Shown here: in pieces, positions 38,841 through 62,749 of the stretch
How the letters are laid out: each line of letters begins with the position of its first letter
Numbering within the stretch: position 1 is the first letter of the stretch
Source of the DNA: Cyanophora paradoxa CCMP329
Taxonomy: Eukaryota; Plantae; Glaucophyta
Assembly: GCA_004431415.1 (NCBI GenBank)
Contig: QPMI01000406.1
Span: 1,584-65,583 of the forward strand
Length of the DNA: 64,000 nucleotides
Direction of reading: 5' to 3'
The notes under the pieces: generated by a model
Seen by the model: the letters and a program-made list of their open reading frames with translations, nothing else
The model's database searches: none
What the model was told of the DNA's origin: nothing
Position numbers and translations under genes: made by a program

Positions 38841-39459
38841 CGGCCCTCGCACCCCCTCGAGCTCGCTCGATCCTCAGACCTCTTTGCAGCCTCGAAGTGC
38901 GCTTCGCGGATTTGAACGGGGACCTGCTGACTTGGCTCTGGGGTACGCTGCCTTCCGCGCATCCGGTCCCAGGGTACGCGGACATCGACCGTGTTTCGCA
39001 GCTGGGGAGCATGCGCAAGCAGGCTTCCTCCGGTGCCTCGCCGTCATGTGCCACCCCGGCCCCGGGATCGAACTGGGTATGCAATTGAATCGCGCCCCCC
39101 TCACCCCCGCTCCCCCCCCCCCACCCCCCCTCCCCGGCACCCCGGCCACCCCCGCCGCCAACCCAGCCCCCGCGCAGACGCGCTGGTACCCGTCCTCGAG
39201 CGCCTCCCGCCCTCCGTTCGCGTGGAGGTGATGGTGCTGGACTCGTGGTCCCTTCCCGGCATCGATTCCCTCCTCCGGGCCCTCCTTGACTCGCCCCCCC
39301 TCCTCGCCCGGGTACGGGTCCACTTCGACCCGGGCCACCCTGCCTTCGCCTCACCCTCCCCCGTGTTCGCCGCTTTTGCTGAGGCCCACGGGGGGTTCGA
39401 GGCCTTAGAATGGGACCAGCCCGCGCGCTCATTGAGAAACGTTAACATTAATATTTGAC
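37639..39459 (+). CDS. F-box domain protein (multi-exon; start exon not resolved)
   Basis: SLQELPDDVFHLILAHLS....AAGVCRRWRAAA is an F-box signature. It is followed by Leu-rich exons ending RSLRNVNINI*. Confidence 0.7.
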
Positions 39460-40685
39460 ACTTCTCCTTTGATTTCGATTTCTGATTTTCTTCAGGCTCG
39501 TAGCTTATGATCACCGTCACTGCGGCGTTTCCGGCCTTCTCTTTCTTCAAGATAGCTAGCTATATATGCTGCTATACCTGTAGCTGTGCAGGCCGCAGTT
39601 TCAAGACACCCACGATATGGCCCAACTCAGCTCTTTCTCTTCTTATTTTCGTTCAGCTAAATTTGCGCCGTCTGCCCTGACAAAGATTTGCTTTGATTTG
39701 CCCCGCCGATTATCTTGCCTTTAACTAAATCTCCGTTTCCTGCTCGTGCGATATATATATATAGCTATGTAGTCTGGGAGTTCGAATTCGGTAATTGCAT
39801 TATAATAATTGGCTTCGTACACACTAATGAATTCGTGGGATTGATTGTATACGTAGGCGTTACGAGCAGGCGTCGGCGGCGAGAGCGGCCTCGTCCGCCT
39901 CCAGCGCCAGCGCCTCGAGCGATTCCGCTGCCTCCAGCGCCTGCCGCAGCGCGGGGCGCTAGAATCAGCTGCAGGCCAGGATGCACTGCTGCAGGGCGGG
40001 GGCGCGGCCGCGGGCCGGGGCTTGCCTCGTCGTCGACGGCGGCTGCCTCGTCCTCGTCCACAGAAGCAACTGCGCAAACAGACACGTGCAGCTTAGACTT
40101 CCGAGATACTGAGACCATGCGGTCGAACAATTCGCGGTTTTTCACGAATCCGAATTACCATCGCTGTCGACACGTAGCGCTTCTTCGTAAATGGTGATTT
40201 CCGAGAAGGTCGTTTTGTTGTTCAGGACGTTGTTCGGGTTGTACCCGTTCGGGTTGTCGAACAGGAACTTGTCGAAAGAGTAGAGCTCGCTGGGTGGTCA
40301 CCCCCACCAATTGCGCGACCTTCCCGCGACCATTTTCAATAAGCACATTTTCAGCATCACGAATCTCAGTCACAAAATCACAAATTCGCACTGAGCCACA
40401 TTGTATTTTTCAAACATCTAACTCCTCCTTACTGAAACCAATCACAAAAACCTACATATAATCTTCTCTCTAATCCCTTACCATTTTCAGTAAGCCTTTA
40501 TTCCGCCTTCCGATCTCTCAGTAAGGACAGTAAGACCCTATTTTTTGCGTAATGTTCCTGATCCTTGTCGAACTGTTTTCAGTAGTCCAATTTGAAAAAT
40601 CAAGGTGAGCCCCACCGATAGGTTAAATTAACTTATATAGTGCGTATATCCCCACTTAAAGATTTCCCACTATACAAGTATAAAG

Positions 40686-41009
40686 ATGCCGGGTAATCAG
40701 CTCCCCTTACCTAAAAGTAAACTGTGCAATGTGTGCAAAGAGGTCAAGCCTGCATCGTGGTTCCCTTTGCGCAAGTGCAAGTCGGGAAATATAACATTAT
40801 ATTGGAGATGCATAGAGTGCCACCGTGACTATCAAAATGATCACTATCACAATGTCTTAAAAACGCGTCCGAAAATCGAAGTACAATCGAAGATATGCCC
40901 GGATTGCAAGATTGAGAAGCCTGCAAGCGAGTATAATAAAAAGCAAAGTACGAAGGATGGTCTCTACTATAAATGCCGACAGTGTTATAGTGAGACTCGG
41001 ACGAGCTAA
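40686..41009 (+). CDS. Small viral protein with two CxxC...CxxC zinc-ribbon repeats
   Basis: SKLCNVCKEVKPASWF...WRCIEC and SKICPDCKIEKPASEY...YKCRQC, a repeat type common in DNA-virus proteins. Confidence 0.8.
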   Translation: MPGNQLPLPKSKLCNVCKEVKPASWFPLRKCKSGNITLYWRCIECHRDYQNDHYHNVLKTRPKIEVQSKICPDCKIEKPASEYNKKQSTKDGLYYKCRQCYSETRTS

Positions 41010-41231
41010 TTTATGATTTTAAAATGAGATTTATATTTTTTAAAGCAAGTTTGTGCATGAGCAAGCATGCCGAAAATGCCCACCTGCACAAACTTGCGAG
41101 ATCAAGGTAAGCCCCATCGACAAAGTACGACGATAGACCACGTTAAAATACACTCGCGCCCCGCCCACTATGCAAGATACATGCCTTTCTTATGCATGAT
41201 CTATGAAAAATAACAATAAACCCGTCTCTCT

Positions 41232-41495
41232 TTACATAGGAGCACTCACAGTAATTTCGCTTGCCTTTCGAACAGTCCCCCGATTAAATGCTTGCTCTAC
41301 AATCGCTTCCTTTGTGAGTGGAATCGGAATTCCAGCGGCAATACACGATTTAACTTCTTTGTCCACAATCTCATCAATCGCGATTCTTGCCCTATTATGA
41401 GCCGCATTATCGATCCAATCCTGAACAGAGTAGGCACAGTATTCCATTCCAAGTTTCTCGGTTTCAGTTAAAACAACTTGATAGTTGTGCGACAT
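41232..41495 (-). CDS. 87-aa phage-like protein, probable partner of the adjacent C1q fibre
   Basis: Clean ORF beginning 7 bp after the C1q gene stop. The motif LTETEK..MEY.A...QDWIDNA..NRARIAIDEI resembles small proteins I recall beside C1q-domain genes in aquatic tailed phages (recall, not searched). Confidence 0.7.
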   Translation of the reverse strand: MSHNYQVVLTETEKLGMEYCAYSVQDWIDNAAHNRARIAIDEIVDKEVKSCIAAGIPIPLTKEAIVEQAFNRGTVRKASEITVSAPM

Positions 41496-41502
41496 TCTTT
41501 AT

Positions 41503-42498
41503 TTAGATTGTAGAAATTAATTCACCACTCCATTGACAATTCGAAGCATTAAGTCCTCCATAAACAAGATAAAGTTTAGCTGTATCACCAGCAGACATTA
41601 CTACTGAAATGTTTAAACAGAGGGGTCTAATAGAAACCACATTTAATGCCGATGCAACTGCAATACAAAATTTACCATTTGGGGCTGCATTATTTATTCG
41701 TAGATGAACAAGCGAAAGTAAATTATCTTCTTTTGTCGCGCCTGTAAAAATGAAATTGTAGTGACCAGATACAGGAGCTGTGAAAACACCATTCGAAGTA
41801 TCAATATGATTTCCATTGTTTAACCATACCTCTCCATACGAGGTTATATATATTCCTGAGGTAGTTGATAGGGTTGTGGAGATTCCAACACAAAACCGTG
41901 GATGGTTAGGAGTAGCAAGGTAAGAATCCGTTCCATTGATAGAAAGACCTTTCCAGTTGTAAGTTCCAGCGACTGCATTCGCTGTTGAATTGGTGGAAGT
42001 TTTCACAAATGTAGAAGCGATATTCTCATTATTTCGCTTGATTACTAATTCTGTATTGCCCCCAGAATCAATAGTAGTCGTTTTAACTGTCCCAAAAGAT
42101 CCAGCTGTAAGACTTCCAGTTATTGTCGCACTCCCATTCACCCCCAAGCCAGTCCCGATCCAGGCACCACCACTAACTACTTGAAAAGCCGCTGATTTCC
42201 TATCAGCCGGATTAAAAGCTGTTTTATAATCCGCTTGACCTTCATATAGATTATCTTTGGTGATTAGATCCCCTGTTTTTGCGGGTCGATTCGATACGAT
42301 CAGTTCAGTAGCTTTGACGATTCCACCAGCCTTGTCGGCTCTGAGTTCTTTGACTCTGAGTATGGAGGTCTCATTGAAAGAATCGGTTTTCGCTGTCTCA
42401 GTCGAAGGGAATGACTCGCTTAGATCATATACAGTGTGTTGCACGTTGTGGACAGCACTGGCTGATAAGGAAAACACAGGGGTAAACACAGTCGACAT
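41503..42498 (-). CDS. Fibre-like protein with C-terminal C1q/TNF-like trimeric head domain
   Basis: PRFCV...VWLNNGNHIDTSNGVFTAPVSGHYNF...MSAGDTAKLY...WSGELI follows the C1q consensus. The N-terminal AFQVVSGGAWIGTGLGVNG segment is fibre-shaft-like. Confidence 0.85.
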   Translation of the reverse strand: MSTVFTPVFSLSASAVHNVQHTVYDLSESFPSTETAKTDSFNETSILRVKELRADKAGGIVKATELIVSNRPAKTGDLITKDNLYEGQADYKTAFNPADRKSAAFQVVSGGAWIGTGLGVNGSATITGSLTAGSFGTVKTTTIDSGGNTELVIKRNNENIASTFVKTSTNSTANAVAGTYNWKGLSINGTDSYLATPNHPRFCVGISTTLSTTSGIYITSYGEVWLNNGNHIDTSNGVFTAPVSGHYNFIFTGATKEDNLLSLVHLRINNAAPNGKFCIAVASALNVVSIRPLCLNISVVMSAGDTAKLYLVYGGLNASNCQWSGELISTI

Positions 42499-42553
42499 CT
42501 TTTGATTATTCTTTATTATTACGTGAGAATATTATTATTATTACGTGAGAATA

Positions 42554-45500
42554 TTATGCTACCATCTTCCCTGTTGCTATATAACTCATTTGATAGTGGA
42601 AAAGTCCAATGCTTTCATTGTATTCTCTATTTGCCGAAATTGTTGCATGAATAGTAAATGTTGTTGTTGTGGAACTTGTGACACCATATACCAATACATA
42701 TGAACCACCATTATATCCTTGTATCAGATTGAGAACCACTTCTGGGGCTTCCGCAAATGCTTTCGGGAATGTGACAACCTGTGGAAATCCCCAATGACCC
42801 GGACCTGTGATTGTCAAAGATTTTGAGAATTTCCCTGTTTGTATATACTGGTCTTTATTGACACGCTGTTCTGAAACAAGTTTTGCGATCTTTGTATTAT
42901 CTGTTTCATCCATTGCATAATATGCTCTTGCGTAAGCATTTCCCCGACATAATAACGTTTTATCGTATATATTTGCGGAATTGTGGAAAAACCATTGTTC
43001 TAAATAAAGTGGCGCATTCGGTTGGTAAATTTGACCGGATCCCACATACATGGTGTTATTGGCTGTAATTGTATTCGCTACAAATGGGTCTAAGGTTGGG
43101 AAATCCGTGATTTCCGATTTTGTGTGAGTATGGGCGAAGTCTGTTATATTTGCCTTTGTGTGACTATGTGCGAAATCTGTGATATCTGCTTTGCTGTGTG
43201 AGTGAGGACCGACAGATGTTGAAGCTGTTGGTTTTCCGAAGATATTATCCCAATGACAGTAACCACTGTGTGAAGTTACAGCAGGGTTTTTGCTCCATCC
43301 AACAGTAATTGGACCGGGTAAATAAATTCTTCCTTTCTGTCCATGAACACCAACTTTGGTTAGTCCTTCACAATTTATTCCAACAAACTGTTTAAAATCT
43401 CTTTTAGGATTAATTGCAGGAGCATAGGCATTTACTCGTAAACGAATATAAGTATTGTTTGATGGTTCAATTCCAACAACATTAAAGTATCTACTGTCAT
43501 ACTGACACGTATAATAGATATAACATGATTTCATGTCTGTTGGAACAGTCCAATACATCTTACAGCTACTACAATCATCATCACCATCAATCCATGTGTT
43601 TGCCCAAGTGCTTGTGTCACCTACAAGTGGTTGCCCAACATAATCTCTCCAATCTCCTGTGCGGTCTGTGGAAATACCACTTGTAGCGTCAAAATCAGTT
43701 GGTGAAGTGTATGTTGGTGTATTTATCAGATCATCATAGTTTCCAGTTGTTGCCACAGTCGCAAATGTCGGGAAGTCTGTAATTTGAGACTTTGTGTGGG
43801 TATGGGCAAAATCTGTTATTTCTGACTTTGTGTGAGTGTGTGAAAAATCTGTAATCTCTGACTTTGTGTGAGTGTGTGGATCAGGTGGGAAGGTTAATGG
43901 TCGAACATTGTGAACATTGGGTAATTCAATGCGACTAATTGGAGTGTTTGGATCTAATACATATTCAGCACCAAGGTGGACAACAGGAAATGTTTGATCA
44001 TTCGGAGTAGTAACAAAGAAATTAGAAGCATGCACATCACCTGCAATTGTTCCACCTGTTAGTGGTAAATAATCATGATCGTGTGAATCAGGTGGATAGG
44101 TCGATGGGGGATTGACAATATGCTCCCAAAAATGCTTGTGAACATTGGGTAATTCAAGACGACTAAATGGGGTGTTTGGATCTAAAACATATTCAGCACC
44201 AAGGTGGACAACAGGAAATGTTTGATCATTCGGAGTGTCCACAAAGAAATTTGGAGCATGCACATCACCTGTAAGAGTCCCACCTGTAAGGGGTAAATAA
44301 TCCCCAAGAGCCGACGTTAATTCGGTATCTGTTACATAATCTTCAAGAATTGCTGCAAGTTCTGTATCATCTACATAGTTTTTGCTTTCGAGGTAATCAT
44401 CTGTAACAACACCGGAAAGGGTGGTATTGTGTAAGTTTTTAGCTGCCATTCTCTGATTGACTTCTAAGGCGCCACCTGTTGTCGTTTTTATCCATGCAAT
44501 CTCGCATTTTCCGTGATCATCTGTGGGTTGTCCCACAACAGGAAGATAGTTTACAACTTTCTCCCTTGTGAAAACTATCTTAGGTCTTGCTCCATCATAT
44601 GCACTTTGATCTGTTACATTTACTTGTATTGCTGCTGAAAAATCCGCTTCTTGTCCTATTTCTCCTGGGTGATAATTCGTAACATAGATACTGGGGAAAG
44701 TATCATTTACTCCTACATTGAAATCGCCACTATAAACTCCATTTACGATTGGATCCCGTGGTAATCTTACAGCAAGAGTTCCCACCATCGGTGTGCCTGT
44801 TTCACCTGTGAATGTCCCATTGAGATTTACGTAATGATCATTCAAAAACAGCCTTTCAGGTGTATTAATCGATTGGTAAAGTGTGACGCCATTAAAAACG
44901 TTTCCGATTGCATTCAATTGCGCAAAAACTGGCTGCTCATCTATTTCCTCCCATGGGTGCCTGTGGTTACTATTGGTAATCTCTGAATAATCATGAGTGT
45001 GTTTTCCCGGTGGGAAGGTCGATGGGGGATTTGTGATATCTTCCCATAAATGCTTATGGGCGAAATCTGTTATTTGATCTTTTGTGTGTGTGTGGTCGAA
45101 ATCTGTAATATCTGCTTTTGTGTGTTTTTGCTTTGCTAACCAATCTAAAACAACATTCGATGTCGGGTGATTTGGTAGGTTTGCTTCAATCTTCACAGTG
45201 AGATAATCGACTATTACATTACTTCCATTAATATTACTTGCCCATAGGTTACTGCTGTAAATGTTACTGGCATAAATGTTACTGGCATAAATGTTACTTG
45301 TAACTGTAAGGTTTGATGAAATTGTAAGATTAGATGAGATAACACCACCTTTGAGAGACAAGTAATCATGAGTGTGTGGATCAGGTGGGAAGGTTAATGG
45401 TCGATTGGTGATATGCTCCCACAAATGCTCGTGAGAACTGGGTGGAAACGTTAAAGGAACATCTGTGAGTTCTTTGTAGCTCACCTTCTGCTTTGGTATG

Positions 45501-46090
45501 GTGAGTTCAATTGGTGAGAAATCACCCGAAAGGCGATTTTCAGAGGTGAAATACATGAGATTATGGCTGTTAGGTAAATCGCGATCGAGTCTGCAAATCG
45601 GGGTGTTGTCGCCTAATATAAATTCGGCGCCTGTATGCACGACCGGATTTCTTTGGATATACATATTGGATGCACCTATTACAGGTGCTACAATGGGCAC
45701 ATCTGAACATACAAGGTTGCAAGTGATGGAGAAAATGGTTTTAGGGGCGAATAGATTGCAATCAAAGGTCACAGTAGCTGGATCAATAGTAGGATCGACG
45801 TTTGAACAGATCTGAAACATCCACCCACCCACACAGTTGCAATTAAGATTTCGAAAGACTGTTCCCGCCATTGCATCCACATAGCCAATCCCATTTGCTA
45901 TGTCATATATGTGACCAAACTCGTAACCAAAAATGTCATTCCACAGGTTGGAAGCCATAGCTCCCATCACATACCCTTTTAGATCTACTATCAGGTCATT
46001 GGATTCACTGGGTATATTGGCATGGGTTATATAAAAATTATTATCCAATACCGCATTCTTTATTGTCGTTTCTACTATGGGTTCAGTCAT
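42554..46090 (-). CDS. 1178-aa phage-type tail-fibre protein with HTHTKSEITDF repeats and a C-terminal H-type-lectin/gp53-like domain
   Basis: Intact ORF with many H-x-H-x-K-x-[DEQN]-I-T-D-F and HxWxxIxNxPxTFPP repeats, SNIYA repeats and YLPLTGGT motifs. The C-terminus reads IQTG...VTFPKAFAEAPEVV...STTTTFT...SYIATG. Confidence 0.9.
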   Translation of the reverse strand: MTEPIVETTIKNAVLDNNFYITHANIPSESNDLIVDLKGYVMGAMASNLWNDIFGYEFGHIYDIANGIGYVDAMAGTVFRNLNCNCVGGWMFQICSNVDPTIDPATVTFDCNLFAPKTIFSITCNLVCSDVPIVAPVIGASNMYIQRNPVVHTGAEFILGDNTPICRLDRDLPNSHNLMYFTSENRLSGDFSPIELTIPKQKVSYKELTDVPLTFPPSSHEHLWEHITNRPLTFPPDPHTHDYLSLKGGVISSNLTISSNLTVTSNIYASNIYASNIYSSNLWASNINGSNVIVDYLTVKIEANLPNHPTSNVVLDWLAKQKHTKADITDFDHTHTKDQITDFAHKHLWEDITNPPSTFPPGKHTHDYSEITNSNHRHPWEEIDEQPVFAQLNAIGNVFNGVTLYQSINTPERLFLNDHYVNLNGTFTGETGTPMVGTLAVRLPRDPIVNGVYSGDFNVGVNDTFPSIYVTNYHPGEIGQEADFSAAIQVNVTDQSAYDGARPKIVFTREKVVNYLPVVGQPTDDHGKCEIAWIKTTTGGALEVNQRMAAKNLHNTTLSGVVTDDYLESKNYVDDTELAAILEDYVTDTELTSALGDYLPLTGGTLTGDVHAPNFFVDTPNDQTFPVVHLGAEYVLDPNTPFSRLELPNVHKHFWEHIVNPPSTYPPDSHDHDYLPLTGGTIAGDVHASNFFVTTPNDQTFPVVHLGAEYVLDPNTPISRIELPNVHNVRPLTFPPDPHTHTKSEITDFSHTHTKSEITDFAHTHTKSQITDFPTFATVATTGNYDDLINTPTYTSPTDFDATSGISTDRTGDWRDYVGQPLVGDTSTWANTWIDGDDDCSSCKMYWTVPTDMKSCYIYYTCQYDSRYFNVVGIEPSNNTYIRLRVNAYAPAINPKRDFKQFVGINCEGLTKVGVHGQKGRIYLPGPITVGWSKNPAVTSHSGYCHWDNIFGKPTASTSVGPHSHSKADITDFAHSHTKANITDFAHTHTKSEITDFPTLDPFVANTITANNTMYVGSGQIYQPNAPLYLEQWFFHNSANIYDKTLLCRGNAYARAYYAMDETDNTKIAKLVSEQRVNKDQYIQTGKFSKSLTITGPGHWGFPQVVTFPKAFAEAPEVVLNLIQGYNGGSYVLVYGVTSSTTTTFTIHATISANREYNESIGLFHYQMSYIATGKMVA

Positions 46091-46127
46091 TATACTCTAT
46101 TATGGAATACTACAAAAATTAAGGTTG

Positions 46128-49100
46128 TTACATAACGTTTGGAACATGTTCATATATTCTCCCTTCTCGCTGTGCCATTTCCGCCATAAAGTCTCTATCA
46201 TTGTTCATCGTTTGCTCTGCCAATTCTTGTGCTCGTGATTTTTTGGGTGCTGCCCTATTTGCTGGTGGTCGGTCAGTCCTCACAACACTAAGACCATGCC
46301 CCTCGGCTGATCTCACCTCTAAGCCCACATCTCCTTCGGCTGTTTGGGTCACATTAAGCTCTGGTGTGGAGTATTTATTACCTGCTCCTGCAATGGTTCT
46401 GTCTATGCATGCACAACACAAAGCTCGGAATTTGTATGCAAGCACAAGCCCAAGAGCACCGAGAATCGGCAAGAGAATCATAAGCACTAACGTTCCTGGA
46501 TCTGTTCCCGGTGCCCCGACTGGATTTGTAGGATTCGTGGGATTATTAGGTGGTGTGTTTGGATCTGGATTAGTTGTAGGGGGATCTTGTGAATCGGGAT
46601 CTGGGTTAGGCTGGTTCGGATTTGGATCGTTTGGTGGCGGTTCCGTCGACCCTGCTAATGAGGTTGGCGCTGTGTATGCATTCGCAAACACGATTGGAGC
46701 CGTCGCTGGATTTCCTGTGGAGGATCCTGAGATTGCACCATAGGTATCTGCGAGATACTTGTATAATTCCTGTGTCACAGGTGGATTGCTCACAGATCGA
46801 CACACCCAAATATTGCATGTGGTATCATATACTGTATCCCTGATAAAAGGCGGTAGAGCCGTCCCACTGAATGACTCAAAGAGTCCATTTCGCGATAGCA
46901 ACCTATGTCCTGTATCACAATTTCCACCCTCAAAATATTTGGTAGCCGAAATCGCACCTTGCACATAAATATTGCATGTCGAATGCAATCCAATGTTATT
47001 TAGGTTAGGAGTGTATCTGTCATCAAGCCGGACAGTGCACACCCATGGGGAAGCGGTTTTTATATATTTCTTATCGCCCACCTCGATTACATCTGTATTT
47101 GGGTGGCTGTCAAGCTGAGTCCAAACAGCATCATACCTGAAAGTGTAATAAACTAAGAGACCATCAGTAGAGGATGTGAAAGCAAAGAAGGTCATAAAGT
47201 CCGTGGATCCAAAGAAGTCAGCATTGGTCGATGTTAGGGTGACTCTGGGATAGCTCATGTTGACAGTCTCAGAAGGATATGGAATATATGAGGTGTAATT
47301 ACGATTGAAAAGATAATAGTGAAATCCATCTGAGACATTCGAGTGAGTGGGCAAGGTGACTGTTAAGGTCTTACTGCGATCCTCAAACGTTTTCTGTATG
47401 ACAATGTTGCAAGTATTAATATATCGAGAATCGAAAAAGTAATTATTTGTGACTCTATTATCGATCAAAGTCGCATTGGTTCCATTAAACACGAAATTCT
47501 GCCCATTGATCCTCGTAGTGTGAATGTCTGTAACATCGAGAGGATACCTTATTTTTAATCGATCTTCGGGGTCAAATCGCGGAATAGTTCCTGTTGCCTT
47601 CCAACTGATAGTAAAGGGAGGAGCAAGGGACACTGCTGGGATAACAGAGAGATTAAATTTCGAAAAATACAACCCAACAGGGTATGATGTCAGAGCATAT
47701 GTCACTGTTGCATTTCCTACAAGTGTAAAGCCGGTGGTTGTTATGTTAGTTGCAACAAATGGGGAGTAGCCGGCTGGTGCATTTTGAAGTGATGTAGCTG
47801 ACCCATCATTGACCACATACAAATTCGTGTCTGTTATTTCAATAGTAGGAGGGGAAACAAATGGTGTCTCAAATGTGAAATTAAAATTCGCTGGAACCCC
47901 TGCAAGATATCTATATGTTGTTGCTGATATCTCGGATGCCTGGAATACTTTGCTTCCACTCCGCACTACATTACTTGTGTCTTTCACATTGTGGTATGAG
48001 ATGCTGGGAGTTGGGGAGAGCACCAACGAAATAGCATCTGGTAAATCAGACTTTGTTATATACAGTTCTCTGAGAAACTCCTTTCTAAAAGGGGCGGTCA
48101 GTTCTCCAATAGTAGCCGATGATCCTGCGACCACAATATTACAGGTGTTTGCACTCAAAGAGTAAACTGTGTTCCACCTTAAAGAATTCGCCCCAAGATC
48201 GAAATTCTGTGAGAAGGGCACGATATTGCTACCTTGTAAATCTCGGTAAACCTTTACTCTGGGTTTGCTATCGAATACAGGGCTAATGTAATTGATGTTA
48301 AGAGTGAAACTAATAGTAGCTTCGGAACTCAATGAGTTGTTTCGGATGATAAGTAAATTGTATGTCTCGTTAATGACAAACGAAACCTGAAACCCTGTGG
48401 AGGTGACATTTTGGATAAATGCTTTATTCGATTCATTATTGTTATAGATAGGATTATAATAAGTAGTGTGATCCACCAATGAAACAGTGGGTATAGTCGT
48501 CTCGAAACCTGTGACACCCAACTGATCCCAAGTGAATGTATATGTAGGTTTGCCTACATAAGAGACATAGACCCCATTTGCGAGCTGCTGAGGGTATCCC
48601 TCGACAGTGTAGGTCTCAGTTTGCGAAACCGAGCGGGAAAGGTTACTATTATAGTCGGTGTAGCTGATCAGTGCATTACCATTGGTAAGAATCTGATTAG
48701 GTCGGAGTGAGTGATTTAATGGAAGGATTAAATTGGAGGCAAACATGGAAACTCCATGCACCTCTGACCATCTCAGATTCGATAAACCAACTCGGTATGT
48801 GTTGTCAGTCGCGGGTATATGTTCCTTTTCGACAGAATATGGGCTAAGGTAATTGCAAGCGCTCCATCTGCTGCAAACAGAGCATTAATTTCTGATTGCA
48901 AAGCCGCGATTTCGGTTGTGTGGGTCGTGAGGGTTCCATCCTGGCTGGAATCTTTGGTGTTCTTGCTCCTTTCAAACTCCAAAAACGCCTTTACGATGTC
49001 CTTGCCTAAAAGATCGTTTATATTGTCTCTGGTTATGTGAACATGGTCTGTTCTCAGTGCCTGTTTCTCTGTGGTAAAAGCCGGAATTTCTTCTGCAAAT

Positions 49101-49849
49101 GATATAGTCGTTTTATCAAGTGCTAAGGATCTCACATTCGGAGCATTGGCGCCAATTATATCGACAACGTTCCCATTTTCGACAATTTCTAAGGTCGGTT
49201 TCGCGGGGTCTAATGTGAAAACACCCTCTGTTATCTGGGGAACCGATTCGCTCTTCTGAATCACAAAGGATTCGATGTTTAGGTTACAGGTTGCGACATT
49301 GGTGGCGAAAAACGACTCGGAGTTGAGCGAGTTTACATTTAGGGTATCCGTAGTGATGTTACTTGCTGTAATGTTACTCGTCGTAAGATTACCTGCTGAG
49401 AGATCATGGACGACCTCTACCTTTGTTTTCCGTGTGGATACTCCCGCTATAAGTGTGCTATTATCCACGATTCTCATAGCTGCATTTTGGAAACCGCTCT
49501 CATCTTGAATGAAGAAGTTTAAGCGACCTCTATCGAATGCTTTTGGGATGTTCCTGCGATTATATCGCACCGTTTTCGGTAGCTGGCGGGTTGCCTGAAT
49601 GCTGGCGACTCTGTTTCGTTCGTTATCATCAAGTAAAAAGTCGATTCCAAGTTTATGATCCCCTTTCTCGACGTTCATTAACTGCAAAGCTGCGGGTCTG
49701 CTCGGTGTCCACTGACTGGATCTTCGCGGTCTGCATTGTAATTTATTCTCAGAGACCCGCGAATTTCAGTGTTTACCTGATCAGTGTCCTCTATCTGAGT
49801 GGTCGAATTAATAACTCGTGCGTCTGGTCGCGGATTCAGGAACGACATC
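46128..49849 (-). CDS. Large (~1240-aa) fibre/spike-like protein with a C-terminal Pro/Asn linker and transmembrane helix, split by two frameshifts
   Basis: ORFs 49849-49678 (MSFLNP...), 49687-48773 and 48761-46128 join by frame changes near 49688 and ~48820. The alternative frame restores IPATDNTYRVGLSNLRWSEV, paralogous to the downstream NIVPFSQNFDLGANSLRWNTV. The TM segment LVLMILLPILGALGLVLAY is followed by LCCAC. Confidence 0.75.
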
Positions 49850-49891
49850 CTCTTTATAAACAAAGAAGATATATAAGAAGTATATAAGATA

Positions 49892-51385
49892 ATGAAGACC
49901 GTTTTATGTCTGAGTGGTGGAGGGTCGCGTGGAATAATCGAGGCTGCTATACTGGCACAGATTGAAGCCCAAACCGGTAAACGAATCCAACAGCTATTCG
50001 ACTGCTTTGCGGGAACATCCACAGGTGGATTAATCGCGCTCCTTTTGAATATCAAGGGAACCGATGGCGCCCCTAAATATACTGCTACTGATATTCTGGC
50101 GCTCTACAAAGCGAAACTACCGCTGATTTTCGCGAATCCACGAGTGCTTACATCGATTGTGCAACGCCCCAAGTATGAAGCAACTAACTTAGAAGCTGTG
50201 GCTCTGGAACTCTGCGGCTCAGCGACCATGGCGGATCTCTACAAACCCACCATCGTGACTGCGTTCGACACGGTTCAAATGTCCCCCGTTTTTATTTCAA
50301 GCAACGATGAAGACATTAATGGGATGCTTGTGCGCGATGCTGCAAGGGCTACCTCGGCTGCTCCGACCTATTTCGAGCCGAAACAAGTCACAGTCGCCGG
50401 AAGAACATACTGTTTAATTGATGGTTGCATGAGTGGAAATAATTCGCCCGGGGTTTGCGGCTACACATTTGCCCGCACTTTATTCGGAAACTCTTGCGAG
50501 GAGGAGCTTATCGTGGTCTCGATTACGGCGGGTCACGTCCAAGACGCCGATAAAGCAACCGCGGGATATTCGTATGACACCATGAAAAATTGGGGGATCG
50601 TGCAATGGATGCTAAGCGCCACAGGATCGCCAATTCTCAGCATGTTCTTAGAGTCGAGCGATCTAAACGCCCACGTAAAGCTACTGGAACTTTTACCCAG
50701 AAACGATGATCAGAATTACGATCGCTACTATAAGCTGAGCGTTCCTTTACCGAAAGATAAAATGACCCTCGATACAATCACAACGACGCACCTGCAATAT
50801 TTGGAAACGGAAGCGCTCGCCTTTGTTTCCGCACAGCAAACGTATTTTAATGCGATGTATTCAGTGCTGACAATGAATTTATCAGAGGGCGACGTTCCCA
50901 TAATTAATCTGTCCGGGTGCACAGATGTAAGCGCACCCCCGGAGTCCAACTGGGTGCCGCTCGATAATAGCGCTTTTATTGCGGAATTCGGGACAGCCTC
51001 CAATGCCCGCTGGTCGAATGCTACGGGGTGGGTGGGATTTACCAACCCGCCGCAAGGTAGTAGGTCGGGAGGCAATTATTTACGCATCGATTTTCCGCGT
51101 CTGTTCATGCTTTCCTCAATAAAAATGAAGCCGGCTGCGAATGGCAACTATATTAAAACGTTTGAGATCGATTACCAGCTCACTTCCGGAGTTTCTGCGC
51201 TTGTTACATACACAGAAGCCGGCGCGACGAGAGTGTTTACCAATGCAAATCAAATAGCCGGAAGTGCGGAGCCCGACGAACATTTCTTAGCGAACCCGAG
51301 ATCTGTGAGAACCCTCGTAATCTGGGTGCTCACGACGAACGTAGCTTCGGCATGCCGAATAGATTTCGAGGGCTACTACGTTTAA
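49892..51385 (+). CDS. Patatin-like phospholipase fused to a C-terminal discoidin (F5/8 type C)-like domain
   Basis: LSGGGSRG oxyanion motif, GTSTG nucleophile, ATSAAPTYF and a DGC catalytic Asp motif. The C-terminal YLRIDF...YIKTFEIDY...RIDFEG pattern is discoidin-like. Confidence 0.92.
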   Translation: MKTVLCLSGGGSRGIIEAAILAQIEAQTGKRIQQLFDCFAGTSTGGLIALLLNIKGTDGAPKYTATDILALYKAKLPLIFANPRVLTSIVQRPKYEATNLEAVALELCGSATMADLYKPTIVTAFDTVQMSPVFISSNDEDINGMLVRDAARATSAAPTYFEPKQVTVAGRTYCLIDGCMSGNNSPGVCGYTFARTLFGNSCEEELIVVSITAGHVQDADKATAGYSYDTMKNWGIVQWMLSATGSPILSMFLESSDLNAHVKLLELLPRNDDQNYDRYYKLSVPLPKDKMTLDTITTTHLQYLETEALAFVSAQQTYFNAMYSVLTMNLSEGDVPIINLSGCTDVSAPPESNWVPLDNSAFIAEFGTASNARWSNATGWVGFTNPPQGSRSGGNYLRIDFPRLFMLSSIKMKPAANGNYIKTFEIDYQLTSGVSALVTYTEAGATRVFTNANQIAGSAEPDEHFLANPRSVRTLVIWVLTTNVASACRIDFEGYYV

Positions 51386-52227
51386 TCCGTGATCACTTCG
51401 AGCTGAAACGAGTATGAGAGACCGTTTATATCCGCAACAGAGCCCCGCCATTTTCGAAGCGAAATTGTGAGACGATCTAAATGGAGTTGCGATGTGACAT
51501 TTACGAAAGGGATGCTTGCGCTCGGTTCGTGGTAAAAGGAATATCTACCAAAGTCCGAATTCATCTGAATTCGCAATAGATAGGAGTCGTCGACATTGTT
51601 CTGTCTACCTGTAACCGCTGCGAATTTGGTAAAAGGGCGGAGCTCTTCGATATCAAGGTAAATATATGGAATTGCATTAAAGTCGACCATTTTCGGGCAT
51701 ATAATCGCGTAGCGACTGGGGTAATCTCTGAGTGGAACCGGCACTGGTTCTGGTGTGCTGGTGTAAACCACTCCGGGTTCTATGCCGAGACAATCACAGA
51801 ACTCCTGGTCTGAGGACTCTAATGTAAACGGGCTATTCGGAGAAGAGAACACGAACCGGTTGGTAGACAGAGCGAGAGAATAGGAAACGGGGAAGAGACC
51901 GAGAGGATTAAAAGAACCGCCCGCAAATCCGAGTAAAGCATCACTGTTTAGAGCTCTCTCTTTTGGATATCGTTCGTTATCAGCATCGACGTAATAATAA
52001 TCGTTTACGCTGGGAATCGGTGCTATCATTTTGGATGCGGGGATTACTGTGGGCTCTTCGTTTAGAAGCGTTATAGTTATTGTCTGATCGGGCGGAACAA
52101 CATAAGAGCTATTGGGAATCTCAGCGGATAGCACACGAAATCGTCGCACATTATTAAGGCGCGTTTTCAAGTGCAGCACGCCATTTTCAAGGTCTCTACT
52201 GTCGCAATTTATTGTTATTCTTTTCAT
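51382..52227 (-). CDS. Penton/minor capsid-like protein 1 (single jelly roll)
   Basis: ITINCDSRD...NVRRFRVLSAEIPNS...YIYLDIEEL...LDRLTISLR...YSFQLEV fits the penton-like pattern of PLVs and giant viruses. Confidence 0.8.
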   Translation of the reverse strand: MKRITINCDSRDLENGVLHLKTRLNNVRRFRVLSAEIPNSSYVVPPDQTITITLLNEEPTVIPASKMIAPIPSVNDYYYVDADNERYPKERALNSDALLGFAGGSFNPLGLFPVSYSLALSTNRFVFSSPNSPFTLESSDQEFCDCLGIEPGVVYTSTPEPVPVPLRDYPSRYAIICPKMVDFNAIPYIYLDIEELRPFTKFAAVTGRQNNVDDSYLLRIQMNSDFGRYSFYHEPSASIPFVNVTSQLHLDRLTISLRKWRGSVADINGLSYSFQLEVITD

Positions 52228-52243
52228 AATCTATTATAGTAAG

Positions 52244-53170
52244 ATGAAAGAATACCTGAGCTTTTCGAGCGATGATCGCGATGAGGAGTTTACTCAGCCA
52301 AACCAGTATGTAGTGACATTACCCCGTCGCTATGACAACGTAAAATCTGTGCGCCTGGTGCAGGCAACGGTTCCCAATGTTCTTTCGACCGTGACAAACG
52401 ATATAGACGCGACTGGTGCAACCATCGAGCGCATGGAACTCTATTTTTCGGTCACAGCTTCGGATTCCGGATTCGTGACCATCACAATCCCCAAAGGATT
52501 TTACACCAAAGACGACCTTGCCGCAAAAGTCACAGAAAGACTCGAAGCAGCTCGCCTTTCAGATTTCGGTGGAAAATATATTAAATGCCGCTATAATACT
52601 ACTTCAAAGATCTATGAGTTTTTCAGTGATAGTAACTTTTGGTTCAAGTTCTCCAAAGCTTCCCCTGAAACACTCAGAAAATCCAGTAATCGCAAAGCAA
52701 TCGCTAAGAAACTCGCAATATTCGGTTTCAAAGATATTCAGCTATATGTTTACGAGACATTTACCCCTTTTGCAAGCGATACATTCCTTGTGTTTAATCC
52801 TGGGACGGGAACTGTGACACTCAATCGACGCATTCGCGGCTATACTCGTGGAGATGAGACCCCGGCGGCGATGATCTGGCTATATATTGATGAATTTGCG
52901 CCGTTTATTCGCTCAGTCAACAAGCACGTCGATGGTTATTTCATGCGCATTCCAATCCCACAGGAACTCGAACATGGTGATATCTACCACTTCGACACGT
53001 CCACTACGGTGCCTCTCATTCGTGAATTCCGCGAATTAAAATCTTTCGACCGCCTCACGATTAAACTCATCGACCATGATGGCGCTCTCTTAGATTTCGG
53101 GGTTTGGGCGCATTATTTCACTTTTGAAATCGAAACCTACGACGCACCGCCCGAAATGAATTTCTATTGA
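52244..53170 (+). CDS. Penton/minor capsid-like protein 2
   Basis: LSFSSDDRD...PNQYVVTLP...NVKSVRLVQATVPN...IWLYIDE...FDRLTIKLIDHDG..LDFG...FTFEIET. The true ATG is at 52244, directly upstream of the MCP. Confidence 0.82.
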   Translation: MKEYLSFSSDDRDEEFTQPNQYVVTLPRRYDNVKSVRLVQATVPNVLSTVTNDIDATGATIERMELYFSVTASDSGFVTITIPKGFYTKDDLAAKVTERLEAARLSDFGGKYIKCRYNTTSKIYEFFSDSNFWFKFSKASPETLRKSSNRKAIAKKLAIFGFKDIQLYVYETFTPFASDTFLVFNPGTGTVTLNRRIRGYTRGDETPAAMIWLYIDEFAPFIRSVNKHVDGYFMRIPIPQELEHGDIYHFDTSTTVPLIREFRELKSFDRLTIKLIDHDGALLDFGVWAHYFTFEIETYDAPPEMNFY

Positions 53171-53217
53171 GCCCTGTAAATTATTTTCTGATCCCAAAGA
53201 TAAGAGAAGAAACGCTC

Positions 53218-54528
53218 ATGGAGACTAACAGCCAATTCCAGCGCCCAACGCTGAAATCTATGCTCACCACGATGACTACAAGGATTATTTCCTAAACAAG
53301 TCGCTGGTCATTGGAACGTCCTCTGGCACTAAGCCACTTCGAGTTCTGGTCGCCCCCGACACTGAGCCACCCAGCGCTCTCGGCAACCGAGTTGTCTTCA
53401 AAATCCCCCGCTACCATTTCCTGAATGGTCTCGCGCTGCAACTCGATCTTAACCCGATCACCCTCACTGATCTCACGAATGGTGTCGCTGGAACTACTGG
53501 CTACCTTCGCGTTATTGGATCGCTAATTAAGCGCATTGAAATCTCTCACGCTTCATTCCGCTATGTTGTCCCAGAGGATTTCGTCACCCAGTATTTTCTA
53601 CTGATGACCGAACAGGGCGAACTCGATAAGAAACTTCGCTATGTGGGTGGTCTTGTCGGAACCGCTGGTAACACTGTCGGTGGAACCTACGAAATCGATT
53701 TACCCTCTCCTTTCGAGAAGGCGATGTTCCCACTTTGCGCTCTGAACTCTGAGATCGTGGTCGAAATCGAATTCAAGGCGATTGGTGATGGTATCATTGA
53801 GGATGTAAACAATGTTGGCAATATTTCGGTCGTAAACAGTGGTGCTTCCCTTCAAGTGCTGAAACCCCGCATTATCTGCAAGGTCGTAAATGCCGATGAG
53901 GCGGTTGTATCTGAGACCATTGCCCGTGTTAAATCGACTGGTATCGCGATCCCCTACAACGAAATCGGTTTCCTCCACACAGATTTCCAGCCGACCGCCT
54001 CCGGTTCGCGAGTCAATCTCTCGCAACTCACAGGTGCGGGTCTCATCCACACTCTCGTATTCTCTGTGCGCCAAAACGCGAAGACGAAGGTTAACAACGG
54101 AACTCTCTCGGTTCTGGCTCCTCGTGCACTCAGAACCAACGCCGTAAGCTTCTATGTGGAACTCAACAATAACCGCCTTTACTCCAATACTTCGCTTCCT
54201 CTCATGATTGCCGCGACCGAACTTCAAGATAAATATGATGCGGCGATTTTACCGAGAGCACAAGCTACCCGGCTCTCTCTGGCATTTACTTCGGTGCTGG
54301 AAACGGAAAGGCGTCGCTTCTCAACCAAGAGAACACGGGCTACATCGATGCCACAGGCACATCGGCGTTCGATCTGGTCTTCGAATTCAACGGTGTCACA
54401 GCCGGAGGAGTCGGTAATGAGGAGTGGTATGCGAGTGCCGCTTATCAGAAGATGCAAATTCAGTGCATTGCCCTCGCTCATAATATCATGATAATCGAGC
54501 TGATGGATTCGCAGAGTATCAGCATAGG
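53218..54528 (+). CDS. Double jelly-roll major capsid protein (frameshifted near ~53245, ~54240 and the 3' end)
   Basis: The joined frames give VVFKIPRYHFLNGLALQLDL...GSLIKRIEIS...IDLPSPF...FPLCALNSEIVVEIEF...TGYIDA...CIALAHNIMII (~430 aa). The gene lies between a penton-like gene and the ATPase. Confidence 0.85.
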
Positions 54529-54580
54529 ATTCTCATTACCACATTCAGTCTTATTTTTCTATTGTTTTTATAGTGAAAGA

Positions 54581-55426
54581 ATGCAAAAAGGGACGACGCC
54601 CATAGATCTCGAAGAATGGAACCCGAAACAGAGGGTGAAACTTCCCGCACGATTTCTCCTATTGGCGAAAACCAATTGTGGTAAATCGGTATTCTTAAAG
54701 TGGCTGATCAAAGAACTCGAAGACCAGATCTCGTATGTTCTGGTTTTTTGTCCTACGAGTTTCAACGGTTTCTGGGGACAAATTACAGATGAAGTGCATG
54801 ATACCTGGAAACCGGAATACGTAGAGTCGATCATAGAAGCCCGCAAAAAGGCTATCATTGCGGGTAAGAAACCAAAGAATATTCTTATCGTGCTCGACGA
54901 TTGTTTGGAGTCCGGAACTATCGATCTTTCGCGCGATCATTTGCTAAATAAATTGATGGCGCAAGGTCGTCATACGTTTTGTAGCGTCGCTTTAATATCG
55001 CAGAAATTAACAAAGCTGTCAACTATCATTCGCAGTAATGCGGAGTATATCATATTCCTCAGCTGGTCAAACATGCGAGAGTTCGAAGCATATCACGAGG
55101 AATTCGGCAACATGGATAAGGAGAGTTTCAAACGTATGTTCCAAGAGTTTTGTCATAGCTACCAAGCGATCATTCACGATAATACCGGGTATTCTGTGCG
55201 ATGGTGGGTCGAAAAAGCCGATATGATCGATGACCATCCGTTTACTAAATTCCACAAGCGGGCGGCTTTTGAAGAAAAGAAGCGCAAACAACAAGAGGAG
55301 CAAGCGACAAAACCGCCGCCTGTCAAAGATTCGACAACTGTCTGTCGAACTTTATCCAAATTTGAGCGTGAGCTTGAAGGTATCCCAAACTTTCGCAAAT
55401 TTCGCCTAAGAAAAAGAAAATGTTAA
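54581..55426 (+). CDS. A32-like FtsK/HerA DNA packaging ATPase
   Basis: Walker A AKTNCGKS, Walker B ILIVLDDC, QGRH arginine motif and ISQ...IRSN. The likely start is the ATG at 54581. Confidence 0.95.
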   Translation: MQKGTTPIDLEEWNPKQRVKLPARFLLLAKTNCGKSVFLKWLIKELEDQISYVLVFCPTSFNGFWGQITDEVHDTWKPEYVESIIEARKKAIIAGKKPKNILIVLDDCLESGTIDLSRDHLLNKLMAQGRHTFCSVALISQKLTKLSTIIRSNAEYIIFLSWSNMREFEAYHEEFGNMDKESFKRMFQEFCHSYQAIIHDNTGYSVRWWVEKADMIDDHPFTKFHKRAAFEEKKRKQQEEQATKPPPVKDSTTVCRTLSKFERELEGIPNFRKFRLRKRKC

Positions 55427-55448
55427 TCAAATGTAAGAGAAGATAATC

Positions 55449-56129: not shown

Positions 56130-56333
56130 TGACTGTGAATATCCGCAAGGCAAAGCTGAACCCGCCCGTATTTAGAGCGGGTCTTTATGTGGACTCCCTT
56201 GCAATAGGGACAGGTCGGCTCCATAAACAGCATTATAAGTTCGACCAATTCGTAGGGGAACACACGAGCAAGTAAAGCCCTCATTCCCTTTTATTTTCTC
56301 CGATATTTAATACGTTGCGTCCTTGTAGGATCG

Positions 56334-56768: not shown

Positions 56769-56870
56769 GCGGTGAATTTCGGTGGCGCTTGTATCGAGCC
56801 AAGGGCAAAAATGAAGGTTTCGGTAAAAGGTATATAAGGGCAAGGGAAATAATACAGAGTGACAAAAAAC

Positions 56871-56887
56871 TATTTTCTCCGGTTATA
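56871..56887 (+). promoter_or_regulatory. Shared viral upstream motif TATTTTCTCCGGTTATA
   Basis: The same core occurs at 56291, 57431 and 62719, with a variant at 53178, each shortly before an ATG. Confidence 0.7.
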
Positions 56888-56891
56888 GTAA

Positions 56892-57383: not shown

Positions 57384-57430
57384 AGATTTGGCGACAAGGG
57401 TATGAAAAGGAGAATTTGGTAGATTGCGCC

Positions 57431-57452: not shown

Positions 57453-57469
57453 TAAAAGAACTAATAGAG

Positions 57470-61483: not shown

Positions 61484-62571
61484 ATGTTCCTTTTAGCATT
61501 GCTAACCCGTCCTCTAAGATCGTGCGACGCATGTATGACCGAAGACAGGTTTAAGAACCCGTCCGCGATATACGAAGAGCTGAGAAAAGAGGACAAGACC
61601 CTCACATTAAAGAAGTGCAAGATGTCGCAGCGAAACAAGAATTTATGCAGATCAACAAGAAGCCCCCGCACCGACCCAAACAGCTTTTATTCCCATCACA
61701 GCCCCGCCGTGGTGCTACCAAGCGATTCATCTTTTATCTTCATATGGCAGCTATAATTCCGGCTACATTGCAGTCCTTACTCTCATCGAGATGACAGCCG
61801 AAAAGCATATGCCAAGAAGTTAAAGAAAAGAGGGCGCAAGTGTTGCCGCCGCTTTTGCGGAGATGCTTACAGAGCTCCGGCTCGATGATTCGATTGGAGA
61901 CAGATAACGGCTCAGAATTCATCGCGAAGGAGTTTCAGGAGGTCGTTAAAAGCAATGGAATAGAGCACCGCTTTAAACAGGTCGGAGATCACACTTCGCT
62001 GGGAATAATGAATCGCTTTCATTTGACCTAAAAACGATGATAAACAATTACTGTGTCGCATATAATACTGTGCGGTTTATGGACAAGCTGGACGACTTCG
62101 TTTTCAATTATAATAACACCATTCACAGAACCATAGGAATGAAACCCGCGATGTTAAGCTTTCTGATATGGAGCGATCCGAGCGGCTATTATTTCAAGGA
62201 AGAACACAATCGTAAAGGATATATTCAGCGACTTTAAGCCGGGTTCCACGTCGTGTATTATTGCCAAGATCAAAGTTTGATAAAGGAGCACCAAAGGTAT
62301 AGCCGAGAGGTCTACAAAATTGCGGGAAGGAGAGGAAACGCGATAGAGGTGCAAGATGCAGCGGGAACGTAATGCCGAAGCTTTTTAAGCCGCACGAATT
62401 GCAATCATTACAGAGGTCGAGCTGTGGTGGCCATCAGGCAACGCTATTTTAGCGGCTGATGTAGAGGCAGCTTCGATCCGGCAGGTTCAAAAAGAAGGCA
62501 TAGATGTCGCCGCAAGTGTTCCAAAGGCGCATTATTGGAAGATCGCGCAGAAAAGACAAAGAGGGCGCTGA
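61484..62571 (+). pseudogene. Retroviral-type (rve) integrase, frameshifted
   Basis: YQAD (first Asp), SRKAYA, LETDNGSEF (second Asp), GIMNRFHLT, YNNTIHRTIGMKPA, then an FDKG..YSREVYKI C-terminal segment typical of Polinton integrases. Confidence 0.9.
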
Positions 62572-62745: not shown

Positions 62746-62749
62746 AGAG

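What the first reader, a model, noticed from the sequence alone, without database searches (positions are those of the whole stretch)
42554..46090. Bacteriophage-style HxH-repeat tail fibre in a eukaryotic virus, with visible modular DNA duplications
Seen: an intact 1178-aa ORF with clusters of HTHTKSEITDF repeats and a ~55-aa module (YLPLTGGT..GDVHA.NFFV.TPNDQTFPVVHLGAEYVLDPNTP.SR.ELPNVH) duplicated almost exactly at DNA level (~43912-44075 and ~44140-44303). RPLTFPPDPHTH is reused at ~43870 and ~45370, and the tip is lectin-like. Established: HxH motifs bind metals along the three-fold axis of phage fibres. Inference: this is a long vertex fibre whose repeats act as recombination points for changing length or host range.
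Basis: partly seen in the sequence, partly recalled or inferred. Interest (0 to 1): 0.7.

Follow-up and report, generated by a model that had tools for sequence, protein, structure and literature searches.

The report
Phage-type fibre in Polinton-like virus
A virus embedded in a microbial eukaryote's genome carries an intact gene for what is predicted to be a three-stranded attachment fibre, likely stapled by metal ions and built from bacteriophage-type repeats whose number differs between the virus's many copies; fibres of this kind are already reported from such viruses.

Summary
The ORF is real: 1178 aa, minus strand, with 14 HxH motifs (shuffles: mean 2.3, max 9). The 54-aa module pair is 90% identical in DNA, not almost exact, and a third, older copy was missed. 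It lies in a low-GC Polinton-like virus (double-jelly-roll capsid protein, A32 ATPase, patatin, rve remnant) in a ~70%-GC host. A profile of the repeats hits the Bxb1 collar fibre (E 1e-11) and the iron-binding shaft motif of R-pyocin fibres (E 0.003). Residues 940-1178 are modelled as a homotrimer (0.75 against 0.00 for the best control), with the histidines at the interface. The tip resembles an H-type lectin, below Pfam cut-off. Contigs of the same organism show many divergent copies with 12-aa units gained or lost and modules rearranged in frame. Tip swapping, vertex location, metal identity and host-range effects were not shown. The repeats' nearest relatives are tailed-phage proteins; the unique domains have no relatives found. 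Phage-like PLV fibres are published, including one PTR-PTR-H_lectin protein from a Cyanophora PLV. Verdict: new member of a known kind; the metal-site homology and the copy variation are modest additions.

The parts
42554..46090 (-). Fibre ORF, 1178 aa (P0001)
   Evidence: PTR and H_lectin below cut-off; 11 PHROG families, 6 of them 'tail'
45686..46090 (-). N-terminal region aa 1-135; presumed particle anchor (inferred from position only)
   Evidence: no family at E<0.1; untested
45557..45691 (-). M0, diverged third copy of the 54-aa module (aa 134-178)
   Evidence: BLASTP to M2 46% over 50, E 1e-10; sibling contigs carry an M2-like module at this place (joint 45571>43920, side 113)
45368..45481 (-). 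Two W-type shaft repeats ending in HxH (aa 204-241)
   Evidence: same motif as the pyocin iron site and Bxb1 gp4
45230..45337 (-). Seven short S-N-I/L repeats (aa 252-287), likely a beta-type shaft
   Evidence: fold inferred
44957..45133 (-). 12-aa cluster 1 (2 units) plus W-type repeat and two further HxH (aa 320-378)
   Evidence: siblings with -1, +1, +2 units
44411..44908 (-). Non-repetitive domain A (aa ~395-560), possible knob
   Evidence: no family; no relative in metagenome scan
44303..44380 (-). Two 13-aa tandem units (aa 571-596)
   Evidence: sibling with one more unit (joint 44336>44318)
44138..44299 (-). Module M1 (aa 598-651)
44075..44131 (-). W-type repeat between M1 and M2, flanked by two HxH
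43910..44071 (-). Module M2 (aa 674-727), 145/162 nt identical to M1
43869..43904 (-). 36-nt block identical to 45369-45404
43706..43879 (-). 12-aa cluster 2 (3 units) and following phage-type repeat (aa 738-795)
   Evidence: PTR stretch; 266 IMG/VR stretches encode relatives
43256..43693 (-). Non-repetitive beta-rich domain B (aa ~800-945), possible knob
   Evidence: no family; AF2 pLDDT 40, fold search uninformative
43100..43255 (-). W-type repeat plus 12-aa cluster 3 (3 HxH)
   Evidence: His963/965/975/977/987/989 in the modelled trimer interface; sibling with -1 unit
42557..42853 (-). C-terminal H-type-lectin / gp53-like tip
   Evidence: all below cut-off; best-confidence trimer contacts at aa 1117-1173
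41503..42498 (-). Neighbour with C1q-type head, likely a second fibre protein
   Evidence: C1q E 6.9e-6, above cut-off; siblings replace parts of it (joints 41454>42060, 41784>41885)
46128..48746 (-). 872-aa neighbour with two H_lectin-like stretches, Pro-rich stalk and one hydrophobic segment
49892..51385 (+). Patatin phospholipase with a C-terminal extra domain
   Evidence: Patatin E 4e-22; discoidin reading of the tail is recalled, no Pfam hit
51382..53170 (.). Two divergent ORFs, likely minor capsid proteins
   Evidence: DUF5901 E 0.002 for one, below cut-off; identity inferred
53219..54490 (+). Double-jelly-roll major capsid protein gene, frame interrupted near both ends in this assembly
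   Evidence: Atlas 0.97 to Capsid_N/Capsid_NCLDV and Preplasmiviricota clusters; frames
54563..55426 (+). A32-type packaging ATPase
   Evidence: Pox_A32 E 2.5e-10, above cut-off
61885..62028 (+). rve integrase remnant in the fragmented right arm
   Evidence: rve E 4.6e-7, just under cut-off

Best explanation
The ORF is an intact gene of an endogenous Polinton-like virus that likely encodes a homotrimeric attachment fibre of the virion, predicted to bind metal ions through its HxH motifs and likely to bind glycans with its tip, and its repeat number and module order differ between the virus's genomic copies. Mechanism, step by step. (1) Three chains wind together: modelled for aa 940-1178, inferred for the rest. 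(2) At each HxH, six histidines from three chains would hold one Fe(II) or Zn ion on the axis: shown for the aligned motif in R-pyocin fibres, inferred here, up to 14 sites. (3) Thin shafts would space two non-repetitive domains and a lectin-like tip that bind surface glycans of the host cell or of a helper giant virus: inferred. (4) The N-terminus would dock on the capsid, probably at a penton: untested. (5) Slippage and unequal recombination among in-register repeats, within and between copies, would add or remove 36-nt units and swap modules in frame: the variants are seen, the cause is inferred.
For: Viral context: MCP features at 0.97, A32 ATPase and patatin, rve remnant, GC 0.40-0.49 against 0.55-0.80 in the flank. 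Repeats: 38 of 62 protein hits carry PF12789; 148 phage records match, mostly tail proteins among the 25 listed. The repeat profile hits 9d93 collar fibre (E 1.4e-11) and 6cl5 (E 0.0028); counting back from the C-terminus, the aligned histidines are His561/563 of R1, the iron ligands named in PMC6116203. Trimer model: score 0.75, best of 3 controls 0.00; the mark was reached by 21 of 30 solved pairs and 0 of 23 single chains; runs agree in at least 90% of contacts, pLDDT at least 75. Siblings: 783 contigs of one run lie on 3.7 kb at 99+/95-99/90-95/<90% identity in numbers 184/182/263/154; 13 of 13 joints with known filler keep the frame, 6 of them changing an array by -1, +1 or +2 units. Precedent: a fibre-like protein is in PgVV virions.
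Against: Only 239 of 1178 residues were modelled; zinc was not scored; the calibration held no ligands and concerned pairs; on eukaryotes only 1 of 7 proteins without an older solved relative passed, so the pass may be from memory of phage fibres. PTR and H_lectin are below their Pfam cut-offs. Nothing ties the N-terminus to the capsid. No tip exchange was seen for this gene. In-frame joints are expected between in-register repeats, and 4 of the 11 joints link different clusters with sides of only 29-34 letters, so they may be repeat units laid on the wrong cluster. The window copy may be partly a false consensus: only 60-67% of its words are in the 16 best runs, all covering contigs differ from it at some sites (e.g. 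43483, 44810), and no listed contig bridges M1 to M2.
Confidence: 0.78

Rival explanations
1. It is a trimeric fibre, but the variation among copies is neutral decay of resident proviruses (slippage and conversion in the host genome) with no role in tuning length or host range.
For: The right arm of this copy has no open stretch over 170 aa in 8 kb and the MCP frame is interrupted. Unit gains and losses of 36 nt arise by slippage without selection.
Against: The listed variants keep the frame; M1/M2 differ at 8 synonymous and 6 non-synonymous codons, consistent with some constraint. Two indels in neighbouring genes (48812, 49707) are carried by all covering contigs of one run, so some breaks are likely assembly errors, as PMC10120064 reports for such elements.
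Confidence: 0.3
2. It is a structural fibre that tethers the PLV to a helper giant virus or its fibrils rather than to the host cell. Compatible with the best explanation except for the target.
For: Some PLVs depend on giant viruses; Sputnik enters on its helper's fibres.
Against: PgVV is inferred to attach independently, with its fibre-like protein and a lipase in the virion; this element also encodes a phospholipase.
Confidence: 0.15
3. The M1/M2 doubling and the 36-nt identical block are artefacts of assembling many similar copies; the real genes are shorter siblings.
For: A sibling class joins 43764 to 44427, lacking or replacing aa 556-775 (side 58); many contigs differ from the window inside or beside the 36-nt blocks (43888, 45402, 45407); no listed contig bridges M1 to M2.
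Against: M1 and M2 are 10% diverged, unlike a collapsed or doubled assembly; contigs nearly identical to the window cover 43658-43967 (2 differences), 43889-44026 (0) and 44199-44349 (6); the ORF stays open for 3.5 kb.
Confidence: 0.12
4. It is a host-domesticated or non-structural histidine-rich metal-binding protein.
For: 52 His; fibre ORF open while the replication arm is fragmented.
Against: It lies in the structural block of the element, has viral GC and GC3 (0.40, 0.31), many divergent copies, and repeats whose relatives are tail proteins.
Confidence: 0.04

Closest known systems
PTR-PTR-H_lectin fibre of a Cyanophora paradoxa PLV (Bulzu et al. 2025, PMC12220804, section 13 and Fig. S6, n=1)
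   Same: PLV-encoded protein with PF12789 repeats and a C-terminal H_lectin; the paper also places discoidin domains, alone or fused to patatin, mainly in rhizarian and glaucophyte PLVs. This gene may belong to the same family or genome.
   Different: The paper lists only the domain string. In the section, passages and figure supplement I read there is nothing on HxH metal sites, the 54-aa module or variation among copies. Sequence identity with that protein could not be tested.
R1/R2 pyocin tail fibre (PDB 6CL5/6CL6; PMC6116203)
   Same: Homotrimer with knobs, an HxH iron-binding shaft that aligns to the W-type repeat, and a C-terminal sandwich similar to Helix pomatia agglutinin and discoidin II.
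   Different: One HxH site against 14; about 700 aa; attached to a contractile baseplate; knobs and tip show no sequence match.
Mycobacteriophage Bxb1 gp4 tail collar fibre (PDB 9D93) and actinophage minor tail proteins
   Same: W-type HxH repeats (E 1.4e-11; 148 phage records).
   Different: 356 aa; similarity is confined to the repeats (7-14% of the query in the 25 listed records).
PgVV/Gezel-14T Ltf and Tetraselmis PLV tail-fibre protein
   Same: Phage-like fibre gene in a PLV; Ltf is the longest ORF, is found in virions and has a large deletion in one isolate; the TsV-S2b gene is truncated.
   Different: Ltf repeats resemble T4 gp36, not PTR/HxH; no lectin tip in the passages read.
Poly-HxH protein P0064 on L022 (1646 aa, 56 HxH), cluster of the best hit P0002
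   Same: Long arrays of the same 12-aa unit.
   Different: Non-repeat regions unrelated; lies beside a divergent family B polymerase, which points to a jumbo phage (the link of PF20286 to that family is recalled).

Membership tests
Polinton-like virus | Double-jelly-roll major capsid protein | tested here: met
   Atlas 0.97, 204-212 shared features, clusters with Capsid_N/Capsid_NCLDV and Preplasmiviricota; recognition value 1860 is below the tool's 2300 mark. No Pfam or PDB sequence hit.
Polinton-like virus | A32-type packaging ATPase | tested here: met
   Pox_A32 40.7 bits, cut-off 22.8
Polinton-like virus | Minor capsid (penton) protein | tested here: inconclusive
   Two candidates; DUF5901 17.7 bits, cut-off 26.4, for one
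Polinton-like virus | Integrase and replication module | tested here: inconclusive
   rve remnant 30.5 bits, cut-off 32.6; helicase-like motifs read by eye in fragmented frames
Polinton-like virus | Terminal inverted repeats and target-site duplication | tested here: inconclusive
   None between 39300-41300 and 62000-64000 (score 34, shuffles up to 35); the right end may lie beyond the window
Polinton-like virus | 14-40 kb insert with GC unlike the host, many copies | tested here: met
   About 24 kb at GC 0.40-0.51 in a 0.55-0.80 flank; many divergent contigs
HxH metal-binding phage/tailocin fibres | HxH motif in homologous shaft repeat | tested here: met
   Profile aligns to pyocin His561/563 (R1) and, at E 0.6, His562/564 (R2)
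HxH metal-binding phage/tailocin fibres | Intertwined homotrimer | tested here: met
   Model only, aa 940-1178: 0.75 against 0.00
HxH metal-binding phage/tailocin fibres | Metal bound octahedrally by six His | not testable with these tools
   Zinc was included but not scored; geometry not returned
PF12789 PTR | Score above gathering cut-off 27 | tested here: not met
   18.1 bits; 38 of 62 relatives carry the family, so it is PTR-like, not a scored member
H-type lectin (PF09458) | Score above cut-off 24 | tested here: not met
   19.7 bits; Atlas 0.89 with 158 shared features
H-type lectin (PF09458) | Sugar-binding site between protomers | not tested
   No usable monomer model; the trimer model could not be passed to a fold search
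Vertex (penton-anchored) fibre | N-terminal penton-binding segment; presence in virions | not testable with these tools

The most novel reading that the evidence does not exclude
The host genome holds a library of PLV fibre variants in which 36-nt HxH repeats act as a length dial and the 54-aa modules as swap points, so that co-reactivated copies recombine into iron-stapled fibres of new reach and binding range: a phage-style receptor-binding-protein shuffling system run from endogenous copies in a eukaryote.
Probability: 0.22. Interest if true: 0.58.

Novelty: new member of a known kind. Interest (0 to 1): 0.3.

Why it matters
It gives PLV 'phage-like fibres' a concrete structural reading (trimer, pyocin-type metal site, lectin-like tip) and shows that fibre architecture varies among endogenous copies in one organism. 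If the host is a cultured alga, it would be a tractable system for asking what PLV fibres bind and whether eukaryotic viruses carry iron in their fibres. The existence of such fibres is not new.

Tried and rejected
No whole genome is held, so sibling genes could not be read whole. The tip found no sequence relatives: 0 of 674 and 0 of 125 candidates, no phage record, no meaningful PDB hit. Scans for related elements found none: whole protein, ATPase, ATPase core and MCP in viral contigs, domain A and ATPase core in metagenomes; these single-sequence scans see close relatives only. Single-sequence AlphaFold models were unusable (pLDDT 36 and 40) and the fold search on the second gave nothing at E<=0.001. 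The profile search of protein representatives never ran, so distant relatives of the tip remain unsearched; domains A and B and the N-terminus did not complete in the Atlas. No RNA holder is listed; runs guessed to be RNA gave 3-10 short contigs at depth 2-7, which says nothing on expression. Summed contig depth is lower at the tip than over domain A, but the tool rules out ranking parts by depth, so this was not used. The tip does not align significantly with the neighbour's lectin-like stretches, nor domain A with domain B, nor the N-terminus with the 301-aa ORF. Host-side ORFs gave two ephrin-receptor-like hits among 30 and do not identify the host. Earlier scan notes: nothing. Prophage or bacterial contamination was rejected because of the jelly-roll MCP and A32 ATPase.
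Full report
Observation. The ORF at 42554-46090 reads on the minus strand as 1178 aa without a stop. It holds 14 HxH motifs; 2000 shuffles gave a mean of 2.28 and a maximum of 9. Two repeat types carry them: a 12-aa unit, eight times in three clusters (aa 320-343, 738-773, 962-997), and a 19-aa unit of the form W-x2-I-x3-P-x-T-F-P-P-x2-H-x-H, five to six times. The 12-aa units are 22-33 of 36 nt identical to each other. Modules M1 and M2 share 48 of 54 aa and 145 of 162 nt, so the duplication is old enough to have 14 changed codons. A third copy, M0, lies at aa 134-178.

Context. GC falls from 0.55-0.80 in the first 40 kb to 0.40-0.51 from 40 kb to the window's end. The low-GC part encodes an A32 ATPase, a patatin, a C1q-type protein, a double-jelly-roll capsid protein (Atlas 0.97), two possible minor capsid proteins, an rve remnant and an AdoMet decarboxylase. 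This is a Polinton-like virus. No terminal repeats were found. The capsid gene frame is interrupted near both ends and the right arm has no open stretch over 170 aa. Some breaks are likely assembly errors: at 48812 and 49707 all covering contigs of run X4 differ from the window by an indel, and PMC10120064 (passages) reports such artefacts. The host is not identified. The match to PMC12220804 makes a glaucophyte such as Cyanophora plausible (my estimate about 55%); the discoidin reading of the patatin tail is recalled and had no Pfam hit.

Relatives. All similarity is to the repeats. Of 7994 scored candidates 62 passed, with best local coverage of 2-28%, and 38 of them carry PF12789. In GenBank phages 148 records match, none over 80% of the query. 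The cluster-2 query gave 266 IMG/VR stretches, of which the best 80 made 77 loci. None of the 77 matched any of ten other proteins of the element. I scanned 113 proteins from 30 of the 77 loci: 16 loci carry a tailed-phage hallmark, one (L022) a divergent family B polymerase, and 13 nothing diagnostic. IMG/VR is rich in phages, so this shows where the repeat is common, not a direction of transfer. The N-terminus, domains A and B and the tip have no sequence relatives in the searches that ran.

Structure. A profile from 17 repeat stretches hits four PDB sequences: Bxb1 gp4 collar fibre (E 1.4e-11), the R1 pyocin fibre (E 0.0028) and two R2 entries (E 0.6-0.7). Counting back from the C-termini given in PMC6116203 (passages; 701 and 691 residues), the aligned histidines are 561/563 and 562/564, the six-histidine iron ligands of that paper. 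This ties the 19-aa repeat to a proven metal site; for the tandem 12-aa units metal binding is an extrapolation. Three copies of aa 940-1178 with three zinc ions scored 0.75 against 0.00 for the best of 3 controls; the mark was reached by 21 of 30 solved pairs and 0 of 23 single chains, runs agreed in at least 90% of contacts, and pLDDT was at least 75. All six histidines of cluster 3 are in the interface lists of all three copies. The tool warns that the calibration held no ligand, that on eukaryotes only 1 of 7 proteins without an older solved relative passed, and that a pass may come from memory. The tip scores below cut-off for H_lectin and Gp53-like_C and 0.89 in the Atlas; the pyocin tip is likewise similar to Helix agglutinin and discoidin II. 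At the pyocin ratio of about 240 A for 364 residues the whole fibre would be near 75 nm, and one 12-aa unit about 1.6 nm at the shaft ratio; both are rough inferences.

Siblings. Sixteen of 24 listed runs hold 60-67% of the gene's words, all labelled organism A. I laid 8 of the 24. In X6, 783 contigs fall on 3.7 kb across all identity classes. Of the joints with known filler that were shown, 13 of 13 keep the frame: cluster 1 at -1, +1 and +2 units, cluster 2 at +2, cluster 3 at -1, the 13-aa pair at +1, and seven long-range joins. The best anchored are 45096>45140 (side 55-60, spanning cluster 1), 43172>43223 (55), 43764>44427 (58, filler unknown, lacking or replacing aa 556-775) and 45571>43920 (113, an M2-like module in the place of M0). 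Joins between clusters with sides of 22-39 letters may be units laid on the wrong cluster, frame-keeping is expected between in-register repeats, and the method favours joints at repeats; the tables were cut to the best-supported rows. One of 11 joints lies wholly in non-repetitive domain A. No joint or loose end is listed in the tip, so tip exchange is not shown for this gene; the C1q neighbour does show replaced segments.

Prior knowledge. PMC12220804 (outline, section 13 part 1, passages, supplementary file 2 part 1, a search of both supplements) describes phage-like fibres across PLVs, PTR repeats in Trichomonas and Rhodomonas PLVs and in Organic Lake virophage, and one PTR-PTR-H_lectin protein from a Cyanophora paradoxa PLV. 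I did not see its per-gene table for that element, which could show identity. 10.1101/2022.07.28.501842 (passages) finds a fibre-like protein in PgVV virions with a large deletion in one isolate; its supplement was not seen. 10.1101/2025.10.09.676808 (passages) reports a truncated fibre gene among Tetraselmis PLVs. PMC13620141 (passages) reports variable adhesion genes in giant viruses. PMC11705849, PMC7824862 and 10.64898/2026.10.13.758929 were seen as passages. A search for 'HxH' with 'virophage' returned 0 papers, none of the 25 listed of 669 papers in a broader search held an HxH term, and a search on fibre repeats and recombination in endogenous virophages returned only PMC12220804; within this library the metal-site reading and copy-level variation appear unreported.

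Verdict. The protein works like an R-pyocin or phage HxH fibre and belongs to the known class of phage-like PLV fibres; it is PTR-like and H-lectin-like without meeting either Pfam cut-off. Variation among copies is seen; vertex location, ligand, metal and host-range effect are inferred or untested. Interest 0.3.

Noticed in passing
window 46128-48746 (-): 872-aa viral ORF with two H_lectin-like stretches, a Pro/Asn-rich stalk, one strongly hydrophobic 19-aa segment (aa 752-770) followed by cysteines: looks membrane-anchored, unusual beside PLV fibre genes. An indel at 48812 in sibling contigs suggests that its boundary with the upstream 301-aa ORF differs from this assembly.
   Followed up: partly
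window 41503-42498 (-): C1q-headed neighbour; sibling contigs replace segments 41454-42060 and 41784-41885 and show two variants of 41519-41785 (0 and 23 differences), a better candidate for head exchange than the fibre itself.
   Followed up: partly
window 55500-63500: Replication/integration arm is heavily fragmented (longest open stretch 170 aa) and has CpG o/e 1.35 against 0.61 in the fibre gene, while 41200-55500 is nearly intact; decay or assembly error not resolved.
   Followed up: partly
window 56293, 56872, 57437, 62725: Repeated motif ATTTTCTCCG, three of four times 20-25 nt before an ATG in the right arm: candidate viral promoter element.
   Followed up: no
window 63085-63474 (-): Intact S-adenosylmethionine decarboxylase gene near the element's right end (E 2.4e-9).
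   Followed up: no
window 49892-51385 (+): Patatin scores 135.6 bits (cut-off 200) to the CBASS cGAMP-activated phospholipase model, over aa 4-310.
   Followed up: no
window 40686-41009 (+): Zinc-finger ORF resembling the N-terminal parts of phage HNH/endonuclease VII proteins.
   Followed up: no
window 42513-42556: Perfect 22-nt tandem duplication at the fibre's stop codon and the gap to the next gene.
   Followed up: no
L022:6278-11218: 1646-aa protein with 56 HxH motifs next to a divergent family B polymerase, probably a jumbo phage: an extreme poly-HxH fibre.
   Followed up: partly
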